A stretch of DNA of 64,000 nucleotides from Candidatus Harrisonbacteria bacterium (GTDB taxonomy: Bacteria; Patescibacteriota; Minisyncoccia; UBA6257; 1-14-0-10-44-23): positions 185,766-249,765 of the forward strand of contig JAHFLF010000001.1 of assembly GCA_023255625.1 (NCBI GenBank). The letters are read 5' to 3'. Below the pieces are notes generated by a model. The model had not been told where the DNA came from. It searched no databases and was given only the letters and a program-made list of their open reading frames with translations. This document shows, one piece after another, positions 223-62,764 of the stretch (positions within the stretch are counted from its first letter, which is position 1; every line of letters begins with the position of its first letter). A program made the translations under genes and the position numbers.

Positions 223-485
223 ATGGCTGTATTCTAGGCCTCCAGGTGAAGACGCGCAAGTTGTAGGTAATCTTTTTTGAAGGTATCATATACGCAACAA
301 CTTAATAGCAGTGTGACCTAACCTCTCCGAGCAATCGGGCAGCATGGTCTTAAGCCCTCAACAGTAAAAAGCTCCTAGTCAGAGCGCTGTTGAGGCCATA
401 TCGGGAAACTGGTATGGGTGCCGCAAGGCATCGCTGGCTGGGGGCTTTTTGTTCGTCAGCCAGCATAACGATTAAAAATATCATT

Positions 486-5146: not shown

Positions 5147-5246
5147 TAATTTTCAATTTCTAATTTTCAATTTTCAAACAATGATTTAATTTCTAAATTG
5201 ATACATTGGAAATTGTTTAGAAATTAGAAATTGAGAATTGAAAATT
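5147..5246. repeat. AT-rich palindromic intergenic element (family R2), copy 1
   Basis: aattttcaatttctaattttcaattttcaaacaatg...cattggaaattgtttagaaattagaaattgagaattgaaaatt. The two arms are reverse complements. Near-identical copies at 23912-23998 and 62656-62764. Confidence 0.7.
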
Positions 5247-15006: not shown

Positions 15007-15078
15007 AAGAATTTAGAGCTTGTTAGCAAACAAGCTCTATTCTGCCACAGCATTCGAATGCTGCCAATGCGAAACGAG

Positions 15079-15146
15079 AAAAAGGTGGCTGTGTAATTTT
15101 TCGGCAAACGGGGTTCTATTGCCGAAAAATTACACAGCCACCTTTT
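15079..15146 (-). terminator. Intrinsic terminator (27-bp perfect stem hairpin with flanking T/A runs) downstream of clpB; potentially bidirectional
   Basis: aaaaggtggctgtgtaatttttcggcaa-acggggttctat-tgccgaaaaattacacagccacctttt. U-run follows on the minus strand (ttttctcgtttcg). Confidence 0.75.
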
Positions 15147-15172
15147 ATTCTTCTAAAAAATAGTTCGCGATA

Positions 15173-19246: not shown

Positions 19247-19318
19247 GCGGCGGGCATTTTGGTTTTTGCAGCCATCCCGTAGGGTGGGCCCGGCTGCAAA
19301 AACCAAAATGCCCGCCGC
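19247..19318. repeat. Long perfect hairpin, family R4 copy A (27-bp stem, conserved 18-nt loop)
   Basis: gcggcgggcattttggtttttgcagcc-atcccgtagggtgggccc-ggctgcaaaaaccaaaatgcccgccgc. Directly 3' of the cysteine desulfurase gene. Confidence 0.8.
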
Positions 19319-19324
19319 ATCGTA

Positions 19325-20611
19325 CTATTGTTTTATAGATGATAACACGGTTAAGACCCGATCAATCTCTGCATCCGTTGTTAGCCGCCCCAAACTAAAA
19401 CGAATACTATTTTTAGCCCGGGTGCGGTCAAAGCCCATCGCAAGTAAAACATGCGAGGGGTCAATGGACCGGGCGGAACAGGCCGAGCCGGAAGAAACGG
19501 CTATACCTGCCAGGTCGAGCGCTACAAGCAGCTGCTCCCCTGACCGCCGAGGAATAAAAATATTAAGATTATTTGGAAGTCGACCTTGTGCGCCTCCGTT
19601 AAGTACTACACCGGGGAAAATAATTTTATTTCCTTTAAAAAGCTTGTCGCGTAATTTGGCGATTCTTTGAAATTCTTTTGAGCGCAGTGCCGATGCAATT
19701 TCCACGGCCTTAGCAAATCCGACAATCGCCGAGACATTCTCTGTACCGCTGCGAAGGCCGAATTCCTGACCACCGCCAGTCAGGATAGTGAGTAGTGAGT
19801 AGTGAGTAGTGAGTAGCTTTGAGGCAGGGACGCGACGGGCATACAAACATCCAATACCTTTTGGGCCATAAATTTTATGCGCAGAAAGCGTCATCAAATC
19901 AACTCCGAGCGCATCAACATTGCAGTCTAAATACTGAAAGGCCTGAACCGCATCAACATGAAGGAGAGGATAGTTACTTGGTTGCTTAGTTAGTTGGTTG
20001 GTTGGTTGAGAGGCGCGAAAATCGTTAACGATTTTCGCGATTTCTGCGATTGGCTGGACCGTCCCAACTTCATTGTTAGCGTACATAACTGAAACTAGTA
20101 CAGTCCGCTCGTTCAGCGCAGCTTTGAGTTTTTTTAGATCAACAATGCCTTCCCTTGAAACTGGAATAAGCACTACATCCACTCCGTCTTTTTCTAAATC
20201 ACGCGCCGTCTCTAGCACCGACTCATGTTCAATCGCGGAAATAATTAGGCGAGGTATGAATTTTCCATTCTTCATTCTTAATTGGTCATTCATCATTTGC
20301 TTTACGCTCCCGCGTAAAGCAAGATTATTCGCCTCTGTCGCACTCCCCGTAAAAATAATCTCGCTGTAGTGCGCACCGATAGCGCCGGCAATCGTCTGCC
20401 TTGGCTTAAATACCGCCGCACTCGCTGCTTGCCCAAATGAATGCAAAGACCCCGGATTTCCAAAGCTGGTTGCTTGGTTAGTTGGTTGCTTGGTTAGTTG
20501 GTTGGGAAACGATGCGCCAAACCACGGCAGCATGGCTTCAAGCACGCGCGGGTCAAGCGGAGTGGTGGACGCGTAATCAAGATAAATTCTTTTTTGCTTC
20601 ATAAAGCTCAT
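19325..20611 (-). CDS. Cysteine desulfurase (IscS/NifS family, PLP-dependent) carrying three in-frame repeat-derived insertions
   Basis: SAHKIYGPKGIG (PLP Lys), HVDAVQA, GGGQEFGLRSGT, SSGSACS. Extra segments PNQLTKQPTNQATS, SQPTNQLTKQPSNYP and LLTTHYSLLTIL are encoded by GGTTAGTTGG / AGTGAGT micro-repeats. Confidence 0.85.
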   Translation of the reverse strand: MSFMKQKRIYLDYASTTPLDPRVLEAMLPWFGASFPNQLTKQPTNQATSFGNPGSLHSFGQAASAAVFKPRQTIAGAIGAHYSEIIFTGSATEANNLALRGSVKQMMNDQLRMKNGKFIPRLIISAIEHESVLETARDLEKDGVDVVLIPVSREGIVDLKKLKAALNERTVLVSVMYANNEVGTVQPIAEIAKIVNDFRASQPTNQLTKQPSNYPLLHVDAVQAFQYLDCNVDALGVDLMTLSAHKIYGPKGIGCLYARRVPASKLLTTHYSLLTILTGGGQEFGLRSGTENVSAIVGFAKAVEIASALRSKEFQRIAKLRDKLFKGNKIIFPGVVLNGGAQGRLPNNLNIFIPRRSGEQLLVALDLAGIAVSSGSACSARSIDPSHVLLAMGFDRTRAKNSIRFSLGRLTTDAEIDRVLTVLSSIKQ

Positions 20612-20665
20612 AGTACGGCTAAAATCCTATTTGCAAAATACACTAAGTTGCATCATACTGCAACT

Positions 20666-20768
20666 ATTAAGTTTTTAAAGTTCATCAAGCAGAAAGTTAT
20701 CAAGCAAGAAATTTCCGCCCCTTCATTCCCACTTGAAAAACTTGATGAACTTTAAAACTTGATGAACT
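20666..20768. repeat. Repeat family R3, copy 3 (upstream of fur)
   Basis: aagtttttaaagttcatcaagcagaaagttatcaagcaag...cttgaaaaacttgatgaactttaaaacttgatgaactcc. Confidence 0.6.
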
Positions 20769-20772
20769 CCCC

Positions 20773-21198
20773 ATGAACCTAGCCACCACCATCCACATGC
20801 TCCAGGGCCGCGGATTCCGGATGACTACTGTCCGCCGATTTTTGCTGCAAACATTTAAAGATACAAAAGCTCCCCTTTCGGCTAACGACCTCATAGGAAT
20901 TCTCAAAAAAGCTCATCTGGAGTGTAACCGCACAACGGTCTACCGTGAGCTTACTTTTTTAGTTGAGCAGACACTCCTACGCGCGGTTGACTTTGGCGAC
21001 GGCGCAAAACGCTACGAGCTCGCCGGTGGCGAGCATCACCATCACTTTATTTGCAGTAACTGCAAAGCCGTCTCTGATGTCAACTTGAAAAATGATCTTG
21101 AGCAACAGGAGCGAATTTTAGAAAAAATTCTGGGCGCAACGATTGAAAGCCACTCTCTGGAATTTTTCGGGATTTGCAAAAACTGTGGGACGAAATAA
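20773..21198 (+). CDS. fur: Fur-family metal-responsive transcriptional regulator
   Basis: 141 aa. wHTH region RTTVYRELTFLVEQ. Metal-site residues GGEHHHHFICSNCKAV and CKNCG are characteristic of Fur/Zur/PerR. Confidence 0.8.
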   Translation: MNLATTIHMLQGRGFRMTTVRRFLLQTFKDTKAPLSANDLIGILKKAHLECNRTTVYRELTFLVEQTLLRAVDFGDGAKRYELAGGEHHHHFICSNCKAVSDVNLKNDLEQQERILEKILGATIESHSLEFFGICKNCGTK

Positions 21199-21202
21199 AG
21201 CC

Positions 21203-22345
21203 ATGAAGATACTCATTGTTGGCGGCGGGATTGGCGGGCTTGCACTTGCTGCATTTTTAGAAACATACAAGATTGAGTACGACCTCATTGAAAAAGCGCC
21301 GAACTGGCAGCAGCAGGGATTTTCAATTGGCCTGTGGAACAACGGCCGCATTATGCTAAAAAAATTGGGTCTTGCGCAGGAGTTTGACCGCCAGGCGACG
21401 CGTATAAAGCACTACATTATCGCAAACGGCGCAGGAAAATTACTCCGCCAGTATGATCTAGACTCTTTCTACAATCGCTACGGTACCAGCTACTCTCACA
21501 TTGATCGGCAAAGTCTGCACGAATTACTACTAGGTAAGATTGATGCTGCGCGTCTTGGCTTGAGCACAACAATTAAAGAGCTTACGCAAACACCTGATCG
21601 GGTGAGCGTAACTCTAAGCAATGGGAAAACCAAAGTATATGACCTTGTTGTTGGTTGCGATGGAGCAAAATCAGTGCTGCGCAGCTTTATCTCTCCCGGC
21701 ACGAAAACACTCTGCTACGAGGAGTGGCGGGCTTGGTACGGTTGGATAAGCAACACTCTGAAAACAAAGGCGACAGTATCAGAGTATATTGAACCTAGCC
21801 AATTTGCGGCGGTCTTTGATGACGGCGCTAAAACATTGCTGGTACTTATGGCGCCGGCCAGTCACGGAGTATGGGACGATACGGCTGGCCGGATTGCCCG
21901 ACTCAAAACCATTTTCAAAAATGAAGCCGCCATCATCCCGCAGGCATTTGAGAATCTCCACGATGAACAGATTATGCCGTTTGACCTATGCAGCGTAGAA
22001 ACAAAACGCTGGTTTGCCGGGCGCATAGCACTACTTGGCGATGCCGCACACGCCCTACCACCTCATGCTGGCCTCGGTGGAGGAATGGCGATGGAGGATG
22101 CGTATGTGCTTGCCGGAGAGCTGTCGCGGATAGATAAAGATTACTCGCTCCAGGCGGCGCTCGCCCGTTATGAATCTGTGCGCAAACCGCGAGTTGCTCT
22201 TGCCCGTACGCTTACAAACCGCATGCGTGGCTGGGCGATGATAAAATCCCCGCTTCTACGGAAAATTCTTAATAGCTGCATAGCGGTTGTACCGGAACGC
22301 TTTTTTATACAACCGTACCAGAAATTACTAGACCAGGAAATTTAG
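21203..22345 (+). CDS. FAD-dependent monooxygenase (UbiH/salicylate hydroxylase-like)
   Basis: MKILIVGGGIGGLALAAFL (GxGxxG Rossmann), DGAKSVLR, GRIALLGDAAHALPPHAGLGGGMAMEDAYVLA (FAD-binding fingerprint 2). Start at 21203 inside ORF 21143..22345. Confidence 0.8.
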   Translation: MKILIVGGGIGGLALAAFLETYKIEYDLIEKAPNWQQQGFSIGLWNNGRIMLKKLGLAQEFDRQATRIKHYIIANGAGKLLRQYDLDSFYNRYGTSYSHIDRQSLHELLLGKIDAARLGLSTTIKELTQTPDRVSVTLSNGKTKVYDLVVGCDGAKSVLRSFISPGTKTLCYEEWRAWYGWISNTLKTKATVSEYIEPSQFAAVFDDGAKTLLVLMAPASHGVWDDTAGRIARLKTIFKNEAAIIPQAFENLHDEQIMPFDLCSVETKRWFAGRIALLGDAAHALPPHAGLGGGMAMEDAYVLAGELSRIDKDYSLQAALARYESVRKPRVALARTLTNRMRGWAMIKSPLLRKILNSCIAVVPERFFIQPYQKLLDQEI

Positions 22346-22373
22346 AGCTTACCGGCAAACCCGCTCCGGCCGC

Positions 22374-22462
22374 GATCAAGGTTAATTTTTGAAAGGTCGC
22401 GAAGACTCGCCGCATGGAGTAGCTTCAGCTACTTTGAGGACGAGTCGACAATGACCTTTCAA
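22374..22462. terminator. Complex nested hairpin between convergent genes (terminator-like)
   Basis: ggttaatttttgaaaggtc ... gacctttcaaaaattaacc outer stem, with nested gactcg/cgagtc and agtagc/gctact stems. Confidence 0.5.
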
Positions 22463-22615
22463 AAATTAACCAGATCCCAAAGGGTTGCGGTTAGTTTCGC
22501 CGTCTGCGTTGTTGCGAGCAGTATGCCGAAGCTCAAGCTTCTGTCATACCGCTCGCGCCTAGCAGCCAGACGAAACTAGCAAGCAACGCGGCTCGGATGG
22601 GGTTTGCCGGTAAGC

Positions 22616-23197
22616 TCAGGAAAGGTGGGCATACTTGGCTGCTTTTCGTGGCAGCCAGTGTTTGCGATGCAGCACAACAATGAGCACCGCGATAAGCGCG
22701 GCAAATACGGTAATGGCCATAACAGGAATCGTCAGGAAACCGAAAAGGTTAATATACTTCGTGGCGCAGGAAACCAGAGAGATAAGAGTTGTGCACGGAA
22801 TAAGATCCGGCGCACTCCCGTTCTCAAGCAAAATCTGATACCCGCTGACTAAAAATCCGGCAACTGACATTGCGAGTGCTGTATATAAAAGACTCTTGTG
22901 CGGTTTATACAGATACCAGCCAAAAAGAATAATCTCCGGGTACATAAGAGCGCGCTCAATCCAACATAGAAAACAAGCTGGAAACTGCGCAACCTCTGAA
23001 AAAAATAAACTGCCGACGATTGAGCCACCCACAATGGTAAGAGCTACCAGCACGCCGTGCCGGCCCAACCGTTCATGGAGCCACTCGCGTAAATCAGCAC
23101 TGGAAATCGTTGCGATAATAAAAAACACCAGCAGAAGCTGCATGAGAGCGGTCATCGCACCAACAAAATATATAACGCCAATAACAAAAGAACTCAT
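22616..23197 (-). CDS. Disulfide bond formation protein B-like (DsbB/BdbC family) membrane protein
   Basis: Four TM helices. FPACFLCWIERALMYP matches the BdbC/DsbB first-loop CxxC region; a second Cys pair sits in the later loop. Start at internal Met (23197); the ORF extends to 23245. Confidence 0.55.
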   Translation of the reverse strand: MSSFVIGVIYFVGAMTALMQLLLVFFIIATISSADLREWLHERLGRHGVLVALTIVGGSIVGSLFFSEVAQFPACFLCWIERALMYPEIILFGWYLYKPHKSLLYTALAMSVAGFLVSGYQILLENGSAPDLIPCTTLISLVSCATKYINLFGFLTIPVMAITVFAALIAVLIVVLHRKHWLPRKAAKYAHLS

Positions 23198-23255
23198 GCA
23201 GGTATTGTACCGCGAGCCAGTTAATCTGCAAACTCTTGTTTGCATGATCTTTTAC

Positions 23256-23330
23256 GCCGCGCCTGAAATTGCATTTTACAGCCATTCGCTTGCGATGAGC
23301 CCGGCTGTAAAATGCAATTTCGGGCGCGGC
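23256..23330. repeat. Long hairpin, family R4 copy B (28-bp stem, conserved 19-nt loop)
   Basis: cgccgcgcctgaaattgcattttacagcc-attcgcttgcgatgagccc-ggctgtaaaatgcaatttcgggcgcggc. Confidence 0.8.
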
Positions 23331-23372
23331 CTCCCTCTTGCCTCTTGCGAACGAGGCGAGTAATCTTGGGGC

Positions 23373-23903
23373 ATGGCACCGAAAAAAATCACACAATCTA
23401 CTCTTCCCCAACCATTTCTCTTTAAAAACGGCCGCGGCGAACAACTGCACACCGATCAGGTAGTCCGCGAAATTGCCCGCTTTATGCTCCTACAACCACA
23501 GCGAGCATATAAGATCACTATTGGTTCAGACTCTGAACAGCTCGCCGACAAGCGTGCGGACTTTGTGACGGCCATCGTCGTGCACCGCGTTGGTAACGGC
23601 GGTATGTATTTTTGGCGACGTATTGTAGACAGCACAAAATTCCATACGCTGCGCGACAGAATTCTCCAAGAGGTGTTGCTTTCGCTGGAAATTTCGCAAC
23701 TCTTCATTGAAGAGGCAAAAATTGGCGGGCTTCCCCACTTTGATTTTGAAATCCACATTGATATTGGCGAACATGGCGCCACAAAAGTGATGATTCAGGA
23801 GCTCGTCGGCATGATCCGTGCAAATAATTTCACCGCAAAAACCAAACCCGACAGCTACGCCGCCAGTAAGGTGGCGGATAGGCATGGACTGAAGAATGAT
23901 TGA
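23373..23903 (+). CDS. YkuK/DUF458-family RNase H-like fold protein
   Basis: KITIGSDSEQ, ADFVTAIVVHRVGNGGMYFW, and C-terminal KPDSYAASKVADRHG match the YkuK-family pattern as recalled. No database check possible. Confidence 0.5.
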   Translation: MAPKKITQSTLPQPFLFKNGRGEQLHTDQVVREIARFMLLQPQRAYKITIGSDSEQLADKRADFVTAIVVHRVGNGGMYFWRRIVDSTKFHTLRDRILQEVLLSLEISQLFIEEAKIGGLPHFDFEIHIDIGEHGATKVMIQELVGMIRANNFTAKTKPDSYAASKVADRHGLKND

Positions 23904-23911
23904 GTACAGTC

Positions 23912-23998
23912 AAATTTTCAATTTCTAATTTTCAAACAATGATTTAATTTCAGAATTTCTAAATTGGAAATTGTTTAGAAATTGAAAATTGAAAATTA
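23912..23998. repeat. AT-rich palindromic element family R2, copy 2
   Basis: aattttcaatttctaattttcaaacaatgatttaatttcagaatttctaaattggaaattgtttagaaattgaaaattgaaaatt. Over 85 percent identical to copy 1. Confidence 0.7.
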
Positions 23999-24591
23999 AT
24001 GAACCAATGGACACTATTGTCCTCGACATCGAAACCAAAGACATGTACGGTGGGGCATCGGGAAAAATAATTTCCGACCTCTCGCCGTCTTTTGTTGGAA
24101 TTTATTCATATTCTGGAAATAAATATTCTGGCTATTTTGAAAGTGATTTCCCTGACCTAAAAAAACTGTTGAGCGAACCGGCACTCTTAGTCGGCTTTTC
24201 TTCAAATCGGTTTGACCTGCCGATTTTAAGCCGCGTACTGAATCTTGTTTTTGATAAGCATCCGAAAGTAGACCTTTGCGAAGAACTGGAAATACGCACC
24301 GGCCGGCGGGTTGGTCTGAATACGCTCGCCCTCATCAATCTGGGCAAAGGCAAAACCGGCGCCGGGCTGGATGCTCCACAACTTTTCGCCGAAGGAAAAC
24401 TTGAAGAGCTCAAAAGCTACTGTCTGAATGATGTGCAACTCACAAAAGAACTATATGACTTAATTCGTACAAAAAAAGAATTAAAAATCCCAAAGCAAGA
24501 AAGTGTCTTTTCAAATCAGCTCGGACTTTTTGAAAAAGATAAGCTAGAAAAAGTAAAAATAGATTTGGGGCCATTACTAACTTTCATATAA
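23989..24591 (+). CDS. DEDD-family 3'-5' exonuclease (DnaQ/RNase T/RNase D-like)
   Basis: TIVLDIETKD (Exo I DxE), FSSNRFDLPIL (Exo II), YCLNDVQLTKELY (Exo III Y-x3-D). Confidence 0.6.
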   Translation: MKINEPMDTIVLDIETKDMYGGASGKIISDLSPSFVGIYSYSGNKYSGYFESDFPDLKKLLSEPALLVGFSSNRFDLPILSRVLNLVFDKHPKVDLCEELEIRTGRRVGLNTLALINLGKGKTGAGLDAPQLFAEGKLEELKSYCLNDVQLTKELYDLIRTKKELKIPKQESVFSNQLGLFEKDKLEKVKIDLGPLLTFI

Positions 24592-24600
24592 TGAACCCTG

Positions 24601-24674
24601 CGCGGTGGCAATATGTTTTTGCCAGCCATTCGCTTGCGATGGGCCCGGCTGGAAAAAACATATTGCCACCGCGC
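24601..24674. repeat. Long hairpin, family R4 copy C
   Basis: cgcggtggcaatatgtttttgccagcc-attcgcttgcgatgggccc-ggctggaaaaaacatattgccaccgcg. Confidence 0.8.
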
Positions 24675-24726
24675 CCCCATTCGTACTCCTGCCTACCGGC
24701 AGGCAGGTTCGTAAAAAATTCGTAAT

Positions 24727-24804
24727 TCACGAGCCATCAGTTTGCATTTTGAAGCCATCCCGAAGGGTGAGCCCGGCTTCAAAATGCAAACTGATGGCTC
24801 GTGA
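24727..24804. repeat. Long hairpin, family R4 copy D (30-bp perfect stem)
   Basis: tcacgagccatcagtttgcattttgaagcc-atcccgaagggtgagccc-ggcttcaaaatgcaaactgatggctcgtga. Confidence 0.8.
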
Positions 24805-24884
24805 TTAAATCCGGGTATAAAAAAGCGGGGCCTCGACATGCGTCTTGGCCCCCATTCCCGGATTGTGCGCCGGGGCGCTGCGAG

Positions 24885-29649: not shown

Positions 29650-29700
29650 TCCCCTCCTGAAAACTCCGGCGCGTCGCCGGAAAACTGGGAGGGGTTTTGA
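29650..29700 (+). terminator. Leader-embedded intrinsic terminator/attenuator 25 nt upstream of the 29719 CDS
   Basis: cccctcc-tgaaaactccggcgcgtcgccggaaaactg-ggagggg-ttttgattt. An upstream ccctcccc (29572-29579) could form an alternative antiterminator. Confidence 0.5.
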
Positions 29701-29718
29701 TTTGGGAAAGGCAAGGCA

Positions 29719-30426
29719 ATGACTAAGGAACTTGTCCGAGTGAAGCTGCTCATCTTCGCCATCGCACCGAACGAAAAGGAGCGACGGACCGCTGCCGCAA
29801 GTCACACGGCCGAAGGGTATATGCGTGATGGCCCACAGATGCTCGGGATCTGTCTGGCAACCTTCGACCAACTGCCTCAGCTGCTCGCGGCCGTCCGGAA
29901 GACTGAAGAGTTCAGGCGCGATGCCGCGGGTCGGGCGGAAAGCGAGGCTGGCAGGATGTTCGCTGCTGCACTGCGCAACGAATCGGATCGGGAAGAGTTC
30001 TATGCTCACACCGTCGCCATCGGCATCATGATGAGTATCGCCGCAGCTTGTCAGGATGCGGGCATGCTCTTCACGCCGGAATTCCCGCGCTACAACCTCC
30101 GCGCTGCCTCAGATACCTACATTAAGACATCCATGAAGGTGGTCCCAGGGATCACGATCTGCATCGGCCCGCATTTCCAGAAGGAGCATCCCTACCTGGT
30201 CATGATCTACGACAAGCCGGGGCTGCTCTGGTGCGGCGAGGCGGCCAAGCTCCCGGAGATCAACTTCGAGACCAGCGCGTGCACACCCGACCCAACGGAT
30301 GTCGCGTGGACGGAGTCCTACTACACCATGTTCTGCTACCACACCGGCATGAAGACCAAATGGCGTAAGAAGGACTCGCCATTCACCAGTGTCGGTGGTC
30401 ACGGCGGATCCTACGGCGGGCACTAG
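29719..30426 (+). CDS. Hypothetical protein (235 aa), GC-rich island gene 1
   Basis: High-GC codon usage. Gly/His-rich C-terminus SVGGHGGSYGGH. No family recognised. Confidence 0.45.
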   Translation: MTKELVRVKLLIFAIAPNEKERRTAAASHTAEGYMRDGPQMLGICLATFDQLPQLLAAVRKTEEFRRDAAGRAESEAGRMFAAALRNESDREEFYAHTVAIGIMMSIAAACQDAGMLFTPEFPRYNLRAASDTYIKTSMKVVPGITICIGPHFQKEHPYLVMIYDKPGLLWCGEAAKLPEINFETSACTPDPTDVAWTESYYTMFCYHTGMKTKWRKKDSPFTSVGGHGGSYGGH

Positions 30427-30462
30427 GCAACATCAACCCATAACTGAACGAAGGAGAATCAG

Positions 30463-31710
30463 ATGAACAAGGCGCTTCTCGTCGTCTACCCGGGCGGGCT
30501 CGCTGGCGGCGGTACGCTCCAGCAGATCCGCGCCAGCTACACCGACCTCGCCGCTCTGGCGGCGAGTCTCGGCATGAGGTTCGAGACGGCCTGGGATCCG
30601 CGCTCGAATCTGCCTGCGCCTACATTTCCGCTGGTCCTGGGCAGTGCCGGCTACTACGCCCGGCATCAGGAGCTCAAGCAGTGGGCAGGCGAGGTGCGCA
30701 CACGGCTGCACGAACAAGGCGTGAGCGAGCTGACGGTGTATGGCTTCGGGTACACCAGCTTCATCCCCTACGCCTTCGAAGGATACGACGATGTTCGGGT
30801 GATCTGGGGAGACTGCTCCCCGCCTGACACCGATGTTCTCGGCGGCGATCTCTCGTCGCGCTTCTACGGCAAGGCCTACGAACGGACGCGCGGCCTCTGC
30901 TACGGCTGGCATGAGGGAGGGCCACTCACGCGCCGGCCACTGATGTATTCGTACTCCATGACCGCGCAACCGTTTGGCAAGGAGTATGTCGGGTCTCTGC
31001 TGGCGCAGCGTCTCACAACTCCCGAACCGCTCGGTGGCGAGGGGGCGATCAGGATTGTGCTCTCGGCTTCAGACATCTGGTCGCCGAATGCAATCGGTGT
31101 CTGGATGACCGAGCAGCAGCACCGTGACACCGTTCTCCGGACGGCGCTTCTCATGGACGCCATTCGAACCTGCGCGCAGCAACTCGGGCGCAAGGTTGTC
31201 CTCTACGCGCACCCGACTCTTCGCAAGGTCAATGTTCCGACGCGCAGCTTCTATCCCAACCAGAGCGGACTGGAGGGATTTGCGGAGGCCGGAGGCATCA
31301 CCCTGGTGGACACGCACACGAGCGCGTGGACACCGGAGCAGTATCGGGCGCTCTTGCGAAGCGCCAACCTGGTCGTAACTCGCGCGTCGCATTCGGTAAC
31401 CTCTGCCGAATGTGCAGCGATGGGAATCCCCCAGGCACTCTGCCCCATGCCGTCAATGGGGTACATGAACGAAGGAGAGTTCACCTCTGACATTCGGGAC
31501 CGCGGGCTGGCCATGGTCCTCGATCCTCTGTCGCGGGGGCTGTGGCGACAGATCGCCACGGCGCTGACCGACGACAATCTGCGGCGCGACACCACCCGCC
31601 GCGCCTGCGAAGAGTTCGACAGGATCAATGACCGCCAGAACTTCTTCAAGAATCTAGCAACCCTCATCGAAGTTTCCTGGAGAAATTCAGATGACTACGA
31701 AGTAGCATAG
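30463..31710 (+). CDS. GT-B fold glycosyltransferase-like protein (GT1/GT28-like), GC-rich island gene 2
   Basis: N-terminal ALLVVYPGGLAGGGTLQQI (Gly-rich loop after beta1). C-terminal SANLVVTRASHSVTSAECAAMGIPQALCPMP resembles the GT1/MurG donor-binding motif. SD gaaggag upstream. Confidence 0.5.
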   Translation: MNKALLVVYPGGLAGGGTLQQIRASYTDLAALAASLGMRFETAWDPRSNLPAPTFPLVLGSAGYYARHQELKQWAGEVRTRLHEQGVSELTVYGFGYTSFIPYAFEGYDDVRVIWGDCSPPDTDVLGGDLSSRFYGKAYERTRGLCYGWHEGGPLTRRPLMYSYSMTAQPFGKEYVGSLLAQRLTTPEPLGGEGAIRIVLSASDIWSPNAIGVWMTEQQHRDTVLRTALLMDAIRTCAQQLGRKVVLYAHPTLRKVNVPTRSFYPNQSGLEGFAEAGGITLVDTHTSAWTPEQYRALLRSANLVVTRASHSVTSAECAAMGIPQALCPMPSMGYMNEGEFTSDIRDRGLAMVLDPLSRGLWRQIATALTDDNLRRDTTRRACEEFDRINDRQNFFKNLATLIEVSWRNSDDYEVA

Positions 31711-62291: not shown

Positions 62292-62665
62292 TCTCTGTTG
62301 CTGTTCTTGATGTGTCGGCTAAAAGGTACGAGAAAAAAATTACACATGCAGCCCACGAGCTTGTCATTCTTTTATCTATTACAAGAAAGCATGTTGATAT
62401 CCTGCTCGTTGGCGACAAGCAGATGCAAAAAAATGTTCTGGCCTTTCCGGCCGATCCTGGCTTCCCCCGCCCAGACCTAACTGAACCATCGCTTGGCGAG
62501 ATTCATCTAAACCCAACATATATTCAAGCGCATAATGAAGACTTATTACTCATGCTCACACATGGATTTCTACATCTGCTTGGCTACGATCACGAGAACA
62601 GCCGTGATAGAATAGTGATGGAGAAAAAGGAGCGAGAACTTCTCGCGAAACTGGCTAATTTCTAA
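62288..62665 (+). CDS. ybeY: rRNA maturation endoribonuclease YbeY
   Basis: LTHGFLHLLGYDHE is the H-x3-H-x5-H zinc motif. Confidence 0.8.
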   Translation: MISVAVLDVSAKRYEKKITHAAHELVILLSITRKHVDILLVGDKQMQKNVLAFPADPGFPRPDLTEPSLGEIHLNPTYIQAHNEDLLLMLTHGFLHLLGYDHENSRDRIVMEKKERELLAKLANF

Positions 62666-62764
62666 TTTAAAATTTCTAATTCCTAAACAATTTCTAATGT
62701 TTTAATTTTGAAATTTAAGCATTGAGATATTGTTTGAAAATTGAAAATTAGAAATTGAAAATTA
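62656..62764. repeat. AT-rich palindromic element family R2, copy 3 (diverged)
   Basis: aatttctaatttaaaatttctaattcctaaacaatttctaatg...cattgagatattgtttgaaaattgaaaattagaaattgaaaatt. Confidence 0.6.

What the first reader, a model, noticed from the sequence alone, without database searches (positions are those of the whole stretch)
19247..24804. Family of four very long perfect hairpins (27-30 bp stems) with conserved ~18-nt loop and fully covarying stems
Seen in sequence: copies at 19247-19318, 23256-23330, 24601-24674 and 24727-24804. Each has the architecture [unique 27-30 nt arm]-GCC-AT-(mini-hairpin CCCGNAGGG or TCGCTTGCGA)-TG(A/G)GCCC-GGC-[perfect complement of arm].

What makes this interesting:
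- The stem sequences are unrelated between copies but perfectly self-complementary. This is compensatory covariation across whole stems.
- The loops fall into two closely related types: atcccgNagggtgRgccc and attcgcttgcgatgRgccc.
- All copies lie at 3' ends of genes. Two sit back-to-back at the edge of a GC-rich island.

Inference: this pattern is expected for a structured functional element. It could be a mobile hairpin such as a REP/RAYT or IS200-type substrate, a ribozyme-like or processing motif, or a protein-binding terminator. It is not expected for random palindromes.
Basis: seen in the sequence. Interest (0 to 1): 0.7.

Follow-up and report, generated by a model that had tools for sequence, protein, structure and literature searches.

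The report
Palindromic hairpin repeats, shared tip
Four near-perfect 27-30 bp hairpins sharing one conserved tip are real and form a new small repeat family in a Parcubacteria-type bacterium, but related genomes suggest the matching arms are kept complementary by DNA copying errors at palindromes, not by selection on a functional RNA.

Summary
The four hairpins sit at the stated coordinates, all in + orientation. Stems are 27-30 bp with 0-1 non-Watson-Crick pairs. The centre is AGCC-AT-(CCCGNAGGG | TCGCTTGCGA)-TGRGCCC-GGCT.

No Rfam family matches, and there are no true matches in GTDB representative genomes, IMG/VR, phages or plasmids. The host is a Paceibacterota (CPR) MAG.

I found seven more copies in other Paceibacterota metagenome contigs. 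They represent three independent sites, two of which could be compared between close relatives.

Those comparisons change the interpretation:
- One site is filled in three lineages and empty in a fourth.
- At another site the arms differ completely between relatives but each is self-complementary. A third relative has non-complementary flanks, one resembling each.
- Loops drift at about the neutral rate.
- A neighbouring hairpin family shows a flipped loop and symmetric indels.
- Arms diverge much faster than the adjacent intergenic DNA.
- Copies lie sense, antisense or in promoter regions, and both strands fold equally well.

Best reading: a DNA-level palindromic repeat family, REP/MITE-like in lifestyle. 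It has a conserved core of about 26-45 nt, and its arms are built and renewed by replication template switching.

How the core spreads, and whether any protein reads it, is unknown. This is a new variant of a known kind, of moderate interest.

The parts
19247..19318 (+). hp1: 27-bp perfect stem, with type-A loop ATCCCGTAGGGTGGGCCC at 19274-19291. It lies in the 92-nt iscS-htrA spacer, antisense to both genes.
   Evidence: The same spacer is 17 nt in L030, 24 nt in L031 and 141 nt in L028, without a hairpin in any of them.
23256..23330 (+). hp2: 28-bp stem with one T.G pair, and type-B loop ATTCGCTTGCGATGAGCCC at 23284-23302. It lies between the divergent dsbB (-) and RNaseH-like (+) genes.
24600..24674 (+). 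hp3: 28-bp stem with one G.A mismatch, and type-B loop ATTCGCTTGCGATGGGCCC at 24628-24646. It starts 8 nt after the stop codon of a 194-aa exonuclease-like gene. Its arms are homologous to those of hp1.
   Evidence: The sequence is 100% identical in the independent assembly L156.
24727..24804 (+). hp4: 30-bp perfect stem (34 bp if two mismatches are allowed, 24723-24808), with type-A loop ATCCCGAAGGGTGAGCCC at 24757-24774. It lies 52 nt downstream of hp3 in the same orientation, in a convergent spacer. Its arms are homologous to those of hp2.
   Evidence: The 38-nt core is 95% identical to that of the copy in L123.

Best explanation
The four hairpins belong to a lineage-restricted family of DNA palindromes in Paceibacterota. 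In lifestyle they resemble REP, MITE and other stem-loop repeat families.

The heritable unit is a core of about 26-45 nt. It comprises an apical 4-bp stem (GRCY/RGYC, AGCC/GGCT in the window), a loop reading AT, then a 3-4 bp mini-hairpin, then TGAGYCC, and in the window about 8 further bp of T/A tract.

The long arms outside the core are not conserved information. I infer that they are created, extended, overwritten and kept perfectly complementary by intramolecular template switching during DNA replication or repair (quasipalindrome correction), and possibly by recombination between arms. This mechanism turns one change into a matched change on the other arm, can replace an arm with the reverse complement of the other flank, and can flip the loop.

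The apparent 'compensatory covariation' is therefore a mutational by-product, not evidence of selection on an RNA helix.

Copies spread mostly over short distances: four lie within 5.6 kb here, and two within 0.8 kb in the L120/L162 clade. They later decay.

Any effect on expression, such as an RNase III target, a 3' end barrier or a transcriptional insulator, would be incidental.

Shown: family membership, the filled and empty site, arm replacement patterns, loop flip, symmetric indels, decay, and mixed orientation. Inferred: template switching as the mechanism. Unknown: how the core reaches new sites and new genomes.
For: 1. Family and core. There are 4 window copies plus L123, L120a/b, L159a/b and L162a/b. 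All share the loop, while the distal arms are site-specific.

2. Watson-Crick symmetry. 18 of 27 stem pairs change on both sides and only one pair shows a one-sided change. The five pristine copies have 2 non-Watson-Crick pairs in about 146. Folding energy is the same on both strands.

3. Orthologous site 2.
- In L162 the 5' arm equals the reverse complement of the 3' arm (32/34).
- L120 is also self-complementary but with a different sequence (20-21/35 identical to L162).
- L159 has non-complementary flanks. Its 5' flank carries the L162-type blocks and its 3' flank the L120-type blocks.
- Segment lengths are conserved at 46-48 nt and 32-34 nt, so this is replacement, not insertion.

4. Neighbouring hairpin family. 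Its 17-nt loop in L159 is the reverse complement of the loop in L162 and L120. It also shows a symmetric CGCC/GGCG indel and a compensated T-A to C-G change.

5. Centre-out growth. A 45-nt palindromic segment is nested inside an 18-bp hairpin in L159 and L162 but not in L120.

6. Rates. By inspection of the alignment, non-hairpin intergenic DNA is roughly 95% identical among L120, L159 and L162. Arm identities computed are 50-75%, yet the arms stay paired.

7. Weak constraint. Site-1 loops differ at 2-3 of 18 nt between close relatives. Site 2 is decayed in L159 and unrecognisable in L160.

8. Presence and absence. Site 1 is present in the lineages with NusA 100%, 94% and 92% identical to L120. 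It is absent, about 105 nt shorter, at 89% identity.

9. Orientation. It is mixed relative to transcription and to local GC skew.

10. Literature. PMC8794818 lists multi-base compensatory changes, stem extension and loop inversion as footprints of template switching.
Against: - The core is 100% identical over 26 nt between hp4 and L123. These contigs otherwise share no DNA similarity, and a Clp-family ATPase pair is only about 42% identical and may be paralogous. That requires strong constraint or recent horizontal spread, which template switching alone does not explain.
- The pristine copies are GC-richer (53-76%) than their genomes. This hints at selection or a biased process favouring stable stems.
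- The L159 site-2 pattern could also arise from allelic recombination with a crossover in the loop between two perfect-palindrome alleles.
- The sample is small: 11 copies, about 7 independent sites.
- No expression data are available.
Confidence: 0.5

Rival explanations
1. The hairpins are a non-autonomous mobile element moved in trans by a single-strand DNA enzyme (an HUH/Y1 transposase as for REP/RAYT or IS200/IS605, or a rolling-circle type Rep). The enzyme would recognise the conserved loop and apical stem on an extruded hairpin, and the arms would be needed only for extrusion.
For: - One site is filled in some lineages and empty in another.
- hp1 looks like an insertion of about 72 nt.
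- The core is identical in unrelated contigs.
- All four window copies, and both copies in L120/L162, share one orientation.
- 'Conserved loop, variable stem' is the layout of HUH Rep origins (my own knowledge).
- Copies cluster locally.
Against: - No transposase, Rep or integrase is encoded in the window or near any copy.
- There is no target-site duplication and no conserved flank motif.
- There is no GTAG-type 5' motif.
- Orientation does not track local GC skew consistently.
- This model does not by itself explain arm replacement at fixed sites or the loop flip.
Confidence: 0.2
2. The hairpins are a functional RNA element: a cis-acting hairpin whose conserved loop binds a protein, or an RNase III processing or 3'-end stabilising site. 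On this view the stems are kept paired by selection, as in IRE-like or phage T7 RNase III sites.
For: - The helices are very stable.
- Several copies start 6-34 nt after a stop codon.
- The mini-hairpin covaries (CCC/GGG, TCGC/GCGA, TCC/GGA).
- L159a has three G.T pairs, all tolerable only on the sense strand.
Against: - hp1 and L123 are antisense to both neighbouring genes, and hp2 sits in a divergent promoter region.
- Taken over all copies, neither strand folds better.
- No Rfam match was found.
- No U-tract follows the stems.
- Loops drift and copies decay among close relatives.
- Arms evolve faster than neighbouring DNA.
Confidence: 0.13
3. The hairpins are ordinary long-stem transcription terminators or insulators of this clade. 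They would share a loop only because they arose by local duplication.
For: - Long perfect hairpins with other loops are common in these genomes. Several have A/T-flanked bases typical of bidirectional terminators (window 15076-15150; L120 6216-6274; L123 6890-6961).
- hp3 and hp4 lie in a convergent spacer.
Against: - Family-1 stems have GC-rich bases and no T-run after them.
- hp1 interrupts a gene pair that is 17-24 nt apart in relatives.
- The same core occurs in unrelated genomes.
Confidence: 0.1
4. The hairpins are a guide- or spacer-bearing system in which the variable arms carry captured or targeting sequences, like TIGR stem-loop arrays or CRISPR.
For: - The arms are 23-30 nt and variable around a conserved centre.
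- TIGR stem-loop arrays in CPR have variable palindromic stems (PMC12045711).
Against: - The loop is only 18-19 nt, with no box C/D pair and no variable spacers.
- No Nop-domain (Tas) or Cas gene is present.
- The arms have no match in IMG/VR or elsewhere in the window.
- The copies do not form an array.
Confidence: 0.02

Closest known systems
REP / BIME sequences and REPINs mobilised by RAYT (TnpA-REP)
   Same: Both are short intergenic palindromic repeats that form hairpins, cluster, sit near gene ends and are non-coding. Both show compensatory changes in the hairpin (PMC3116915).
   Different: In REPINs the conserved parts are the two REPs at the base of the hairpin, and the middle is free to vary. 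Here the tip is conserved and the base is site-specific. No GTAG-like 5' motif and no RAYT gene were seen.
Template-switch (quasipalindrome) mutations that create and maintain hairpins (Mönttinen and Löytynoja 2022, PMC8794818; E. coli quasipalindrome work, PMC7202029)
   Same: Both show perfect stems, several matched changes at once, stem extension and loop inversion.
   Different: Those events are described at unrelated loci. Here they act on a multi-copy family with a shared centre, and that centre is itself unexplained.
Bacterial MITEs that fold into long hairpins (Correia, ERIC, RUP, Nezha)
   Same: Both are small non-autonomous intergenic insertions showing presence/absence between relatives.
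   Different: MITEs have conserved terminal inverted repeats and target-site duplications. Neither is present here.
Integron attC sites
   Same: Both are hairpins conserved in structure but variable in sequence, lying next to genes in one orientation.
   Different: attC sites are conserved at the base (R and L boxes) and have extrahelical bases and an adjacent IntI gene. None of this is seen here. The stems here are perfect and the conserved part is apical.
Origin hairpins of HUH Rep replicons (CRESS viruses, pT181-type plasmids)
   Same: Both have a conserved loop on a stem of variable sequence.
   Different: Those occur as a single copy next to a rep gene on a small replicon. Here there are several chromosomal copies and no rep gene.
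TIGR stem-loop arrays (PMC12045711)
   Same: Both occur in CPR bacteria and have variable palindromic stems around a conserved interior.
   Different: TIGR units carry box C/D motifs and two 8-12 nt spacers, and they lie in arrays beside a Tas gene. None of these features is present here.

Membership tests
REP/REPIN-RAYT | Conserved REP sequence (with a GTAG-type 5' tetranucleotide) forming the conserved part of the hairpin, i.e. the arms or base | tested here: not met
   Conservation is in the loop and apical stem. The distal arms and flanks are unrelated between sites.
REP/REPIN-RAYT | A RAYT (Y1 transposase) gene in the genome, often flanked by REPs | tested here: inconclusive
   None is encoded in the 64 kb window or in the related loci. 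The rest of the genome (about 600 kb contig) could not be read.
MITE | Conserved terminal inverted repeats and a target-site duplication | tested here: not met
   The outer ends differ between copies. No flanking direct repeats or shared flank motifs were found.
IS200/IS605 ends or PATE | Two different subterminal imperfect hairpins (left and right ends) with conserved cleavage tetranucleotides, and TnpA/TnpB nearby or elsewhere | tested here: not met
   Each copy has a single symmetric hairpin. No tnpA or tnpB gene is present in any locus.
Integron attC | Conserved R''/R' (RYYYAAC/GTTRRRY) and L boxes at the base, extrahelical bases, and an IntI gene with a cassette array | tested here: not met
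   The bases of the stems are unrelated and the stems are perfect. The only tyrosine recombinases seen lie about 20 kb away, outside the window.
Intrinsic terminator | GC-rich stem-loop immediately followed by a U-tract on the transcribed strand | tested here: not met
   The scan does not flag any of the four hairpins and no T-run follows the stems.
Known structured RNAs and ribozymes (Rfam 15) | A score at or above the family gathering threshold | tested here: not met
   Only sub-threshold microRNA-precursor hits caused by the hairpin shape. The only true hit in the window is LOOT RNA at 315-432.
TIGR stem-loop array | [quoted passage not shown] | tested here: not met
   The loop is 18-19 nt and conserved, with no D box. 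The copies are dispersed and no Nop-domain gene is present.
Template-switch-maintained palindrome | Multi-base matched changes, arm replacement by the reverse complement of the other side, stem extension or symmetric indels, and loop inversion between relatives | tested here: met
   All four kinds are seen at orthologous hairpins in L120, L159 and L162. They could not be tested for the window copies themselves, because no close relative of the window organism is available.

The most novel reading that the evidence does not exclude
The conserved tip of about 26-45 nt may be a new kind of minimal selfish element, a 'palindrome seed'. It would spread between sites and between Paceibacterota genomes as a hairpin tip. 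It would then recruit replication template switching to build perfect arms specific to each site. Alternatively, the tip is the recognition site of an as yet unknown CPR-specific hairpin-binding nuclease or recombinase.
Probability: 0.2. Interest if true: 0.7.

Novelty: new variant of a known kind. Interest (0 to 1): 0.45.

Why it matters
- It is a clear natural case where 'perfect covariation' in a hairpin family probably comes from a DNA copying mechanism and not from selection on RNA structure. That is a caution for motif-discovery pipelines that score covariation.
- It adds an undescribed repeat family to the very small, repeat-poor genomes of CPR bacteria, and it shows that their intergenic hairpins are hotspots of rapid structural change.
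- If the conserved tip proves to be mobile or protein-bound, it would define a new minimal mobile element or a new nucleic-acid recognition system in an uncultured phylum.

Tried and rejected
- Rfam at gathering and E-value thresholds gave only microRNA-like noise.
- An exact-pattern scan of GTDB representative genomes gave 3 hits, all without arms, so chance.
- A scan of IMG/VR gave 23 hits, all chance.
- BLAST against phages and plasmids found nothing relevant.
- Arms as captured spacers: no match in IMG/VR for four arms and none elsewhere in the window.
- Arms as pre-existing terminators split by an insertion: rejected for hp1, because two relatives have only a 17-24 nt spacer there. A nested insertion into an older hairpin is, however, seen at another site.
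- A conserved promoter-like -10 box upstream, or a CGTAYT motif downstream of the hairpins: not significant in an unbiased k-mer test.
- A link between orientation and the replication strand through GC skew: inconsistent between loci.
- TIGR-Tas stem-loop arrays: the layout does not fit.
- LOOT RNA at 315-432: unrelated.
- A transposase among the window ORFs that lack annotation: none found.
- Strain-level empty sites for the window copies could not be obtained. The other assemblies are identical, and the nearest relatives are only 62-65% identical in IscS.


Full report
**1. The observation**

- hp1, 19247-19318: 27 bp, perfect.
- hp2, 23256-23330: 28 bp, one T.G pair.
- hp3, 24600-24674: 28 bp, one G.A mismatch.
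- hp4, 24727-24804: 30 bp, perfect.

All four carry the centre AGCC-AT-(CCCGNAGGG or TCGCTTGCGA)-TGRGCCC-GGCT on the + strand. A pattern for this centre matches only these four places, against 0 expected in shuffles. As RNA, each folds at -51 to -60 kcal/mol, with z-scores from -6.5 to -12.2, equally on both strands.

Two covariance models, one run with filters off, find no other copy in the window or in 7 kb beyond its right end. By my own estimate, four copies falling within 5.6 kb of a 64 kb window has a probability of about 0.003.

The region is 100% identical in an independent assembly from another sample, so the hairpins are not assembly artefacts.

- The arms are not wholly unrelated. 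The loop-proximal 9-12 nt are conserved. The hp1/hp3 arms (18/21) and the hp2/hp4 arms (17/23) are significantly similar, while the distal ~14 nt are essentially unrelated.
- The purine in TGRGCCC follows the arm subfamily, but the mini-hairpin type does not. The parts therefore appear to have been reshuffled between copies.
- hp2 is not at a gene 3' end. It lies between divergent genes, and hp1 is antisense to both of its neighbours.

**2. Host and distribution**

Protein homologues place the window in a Paceibacterota/Parcubacteria (CPR) MAG. The nearest IscS relatives are only 62-65% identical.

Those relatives keep the gene order HAD, small ORF, exonuclease, (variable genes), DsbB, Fur, IscS, HtrA, ClpB, but they have none of the hairpins. 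Their IscS-HtrA spacer is 17 nt (L030), 24 nt (L031) or 141 nt (L028). In the window it is 92 nt, of which 72 nt are hp1.

The searches gave:
- Rfam: no match.
- Exact-pattern scans of 185,579 representative genomes and of IMG/VR: only chance hits without arms.
- Phage and plasmid collections: nothing relevant.
- JGI metagenome scan, cut at 120 rows: two true members, L123 and L120.

L123 has a 34-bp perfect stem and a loop identical to that of hp4. L120 is a degenerate copy. Both come from other Paceibacterota (for L120). They share no other DNA similarity with the window.

**3. Comparative evidence**

The L120 lineage is well sampled. Three sets of relatives were fetched: L159 (NusA 94% identical to L120), L162-L164 (92%) and L160/L161 (89%).

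*Site 1 (yraN-nusA spacer).*
- The hairpin is present in L120, L159 and L162.
- It is absent in L160/L161, where the spacer is about 105 nt shorter. The nusA promoter (TTGACA, 17-18 nt, TAYAAT) is retained to the right.
- Among the three filled alleles the loop differs at 2-3 of 18 nt.
- The 'invariant' apical stem changes from AGCC/GGCT to GGCT/AGTC and to GACT/AGCC.
- One A-T pair has become T-A.
- L120 has accumulated an internal loop.

*Site 2 (about 0.7 kb upstream).*
- L162 has a pristine 34-bp hairpin. Its loop is ATCCCGCAGGGTGAGTCC.
- L120 has a 22-bp hairpin with completely different arms and a drifted loop.
- L159 keeps the loop (19 of 21 nt match the consensus) between flanks that do not pair.
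- The L159 5' flank carries the L162-type sequence blocks, and its 3' flank carries the L120-type blocks.
- The lengths of the segments are the same in all three.
- In L160 the segment has the same length but is unrecognisable.

The simplest reading is that one flank was copied in reverse complement over the other, in opposite directions in two lineages. Allelic recombination with a crossover in the loop is an alternative.

*Neighbouring hairpins behave in the same way.*
- A second family (TTGAACC, a 17-nt loop, GGTTCAA) has its loop reverse-complemented in L159 relative to L162 and L120. It also shows a symmetric CGCC/GGCG indel and a compensated transition.
- A third hairpin has 13 identical outer base pairs. 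Its interior is 5 bp plus a tetraloop in L120. In L159 and L162 the interior is a 25-bp-arm palindrome, with arms that differ between the two yet are each perfect.

*Rates.* By inspection of the alignment, the non-hairpin intergenic DNA is roughly 95% identical among the three genomes. The arm identities computed are 50-75%.

**4. What this means**

Selection for a helix slows stem evolution and lets changes pass through G.U intermediates on the transcribed strand. Here the arms evolve faster than their surroundings. They change in blocks, gain symmetric indels and remain almost purely Watson-Crick:
- 18 of 27 stem pairs change on both sides, and only one pair shows a one-sided change.
- Both strands are equally stable.

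Loops flip, and whole copies decay in some lineages. These are the published footprints of replication template switching at quasipalindromes: multi-base compensatory changes, stem extension and loop inversion (PMC8794818).

Orientation relative to genes is mixed:
- Sense: hp3, hp4 and site 1.
- Antisense to both neighbours: hp1 and L123.
- Divergent promoter regions: hp2 and site 2.

Orientation does not follow local GC skew consistently. No U-tract follows the stems. A loop-specific RNA function is therefore unlikely.

**5. What remains unexplained**

The centre is the real family signature. It is identical over 26 nt between contigs that are otherwise unrelated. Yet it drifts at roughly the neutral rate in the L120 clade. 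This combination suggests recent spread of active copies followed by neutral decay, as for selfish repeats.

I found no transposase, Rep, integrase, reverse transcriptase, Cas or Tas gene in the window or beside any copy. There is no target-site duplication and no shared flank motif. The arms match nothing in IMG/VR or elsewhere in the window.

Local clustering and the shared orientation within clusters fit short-range copying or local hopping. The mechanism of spread is not shown.

**6. Comparison with known systems**

In lifestyle the family resembles REP/REPIN and MITE repeats. It fails their defining features, which are conserved arms or termini, target-site duplication and, as far as could be read, a RAYT gene. 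Its geometry is the reverse of REPINs and of attC sites: the tip is conserved and the base is free. It shares the 'conserved loop, variable stem' layout of HUH Rep origins but has no rep gene. It does not fit TIGR stem-loop arrays.

The mechanism that keeps the arms perfect matches template-switch mutagenesis. That mechanism is known in general but has not, to my knowledge, been described for a multi-copy family with a shared centre. I found no paper describing such a family in CPR bacteria.

**7. Verdict**

This is a real, non-random and possibly mobile hairpin family, but the covariation is not evidence for a functional RNA.
- It is a new variant of a known kind (intergenic palindromic repeats), of moderate interest.

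The main limits are the small number of copies, the truncated metagenome scan, the lack of access to the rest of the host genome, and the absence of expression data. The template-switch evidence also comes from a related clade, not from the window organism itself.

Noticed in passing
window 315-432 (+): A full-length LOOT RNA (Rfam RF03000, 79 bits against a gathering score of 46). It overlaps the start (390) of the mechanically listed TTG ORF 390-1205, whose real start is presumably further downstream. That ORF is followed by a PycTM-domain gene (1248-1736), which may form a Pycsar-like defence pair.
   Followed up: partly
window 15076-15150: A fifth long perfect hairpin (28-32 bp stem, loop acggggttcta) lies just after the clpB stop codon. 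It has A-run and T-run bases like a bidirectional terminator. It is unrelated to the family in its loop and apical stem.
   Followed up: partly
L159 8522-8602; L162 1037-1123; L120 6216-6274: A second hairpin family in a related Paceibacterota clade (TTGAACC, a 17-nt loop containing a CGAG-NAGA-CTCG mini-hairpin, GGTTCAA). Its loop is reverse-complemented in L159 relative to L162 and L120, and its arms differ by a symmetric 4-nt indel.
   Followed up: yes
L159 8970-9060; L162 1475-1565; L120 5800-5839: An orthologous hairpin with identical outer 13 bp. Its interior is 5 bp plus a tetraloop in L120. In L159 and L162 it is a 41-bp stem with loop GAAGATTAA. The inner arms differ between L159 and L162 but are complementary in each (perfect in L162, one mismatch in L159).
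   Followed up: yes
L123 6890-6961 and L159 16267-16338: Long hairpins with apical CTCTT/AAGAG stems and 26-30 nt loops bounded by GAGCGA-type sequences in opposite orientations. They may represent a third family with a flipped loop.
   Followed up: no
L120 5470-5710 (-), L159 9140-9400, L162 1670-1920: An AT-rich intergenic segment of about 230 nt upstream of yraN is roughly 95% identical (by inspection of the alignment) among three genomes whose coding DNA appears more divergent. It contains a twice-repeated GTTTTACGGAAAACACAATTAAAAT motif and may be an ncRNA or a regulatory region.
   Followed up: no
window 29700-31700: A segment with 60-65% GC in a genome of 47% GC. It holds two ORFs (235 aa and 415 aa) with no Pfam match and may be foreign DNA.
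   Followed up: partly
window 23913-23994, 5196-5239, 62657-62757: AT-rich inverted and direct repeats built on AATTTCTAA / TTAGAAATT units lie upstream of genes. The stretch 23954-23997 is 86% identical to 5196-5239. This may be a shared promoter or operator motif.
   Followed up: no
about 2-5 kb left of window position 1 (Logan contig from SRR14366772, gene table only): Two Phage_integrase (tyrosine recombinase) genes lie just outside the window.
   Followed up: no
window 21143-22345: A FAD-dependent monooxygenase gene lies between fur and dsbB. It is absent from that position in all three syntenic relatives and is not flanked by family hairpins.
   Followed up: partly
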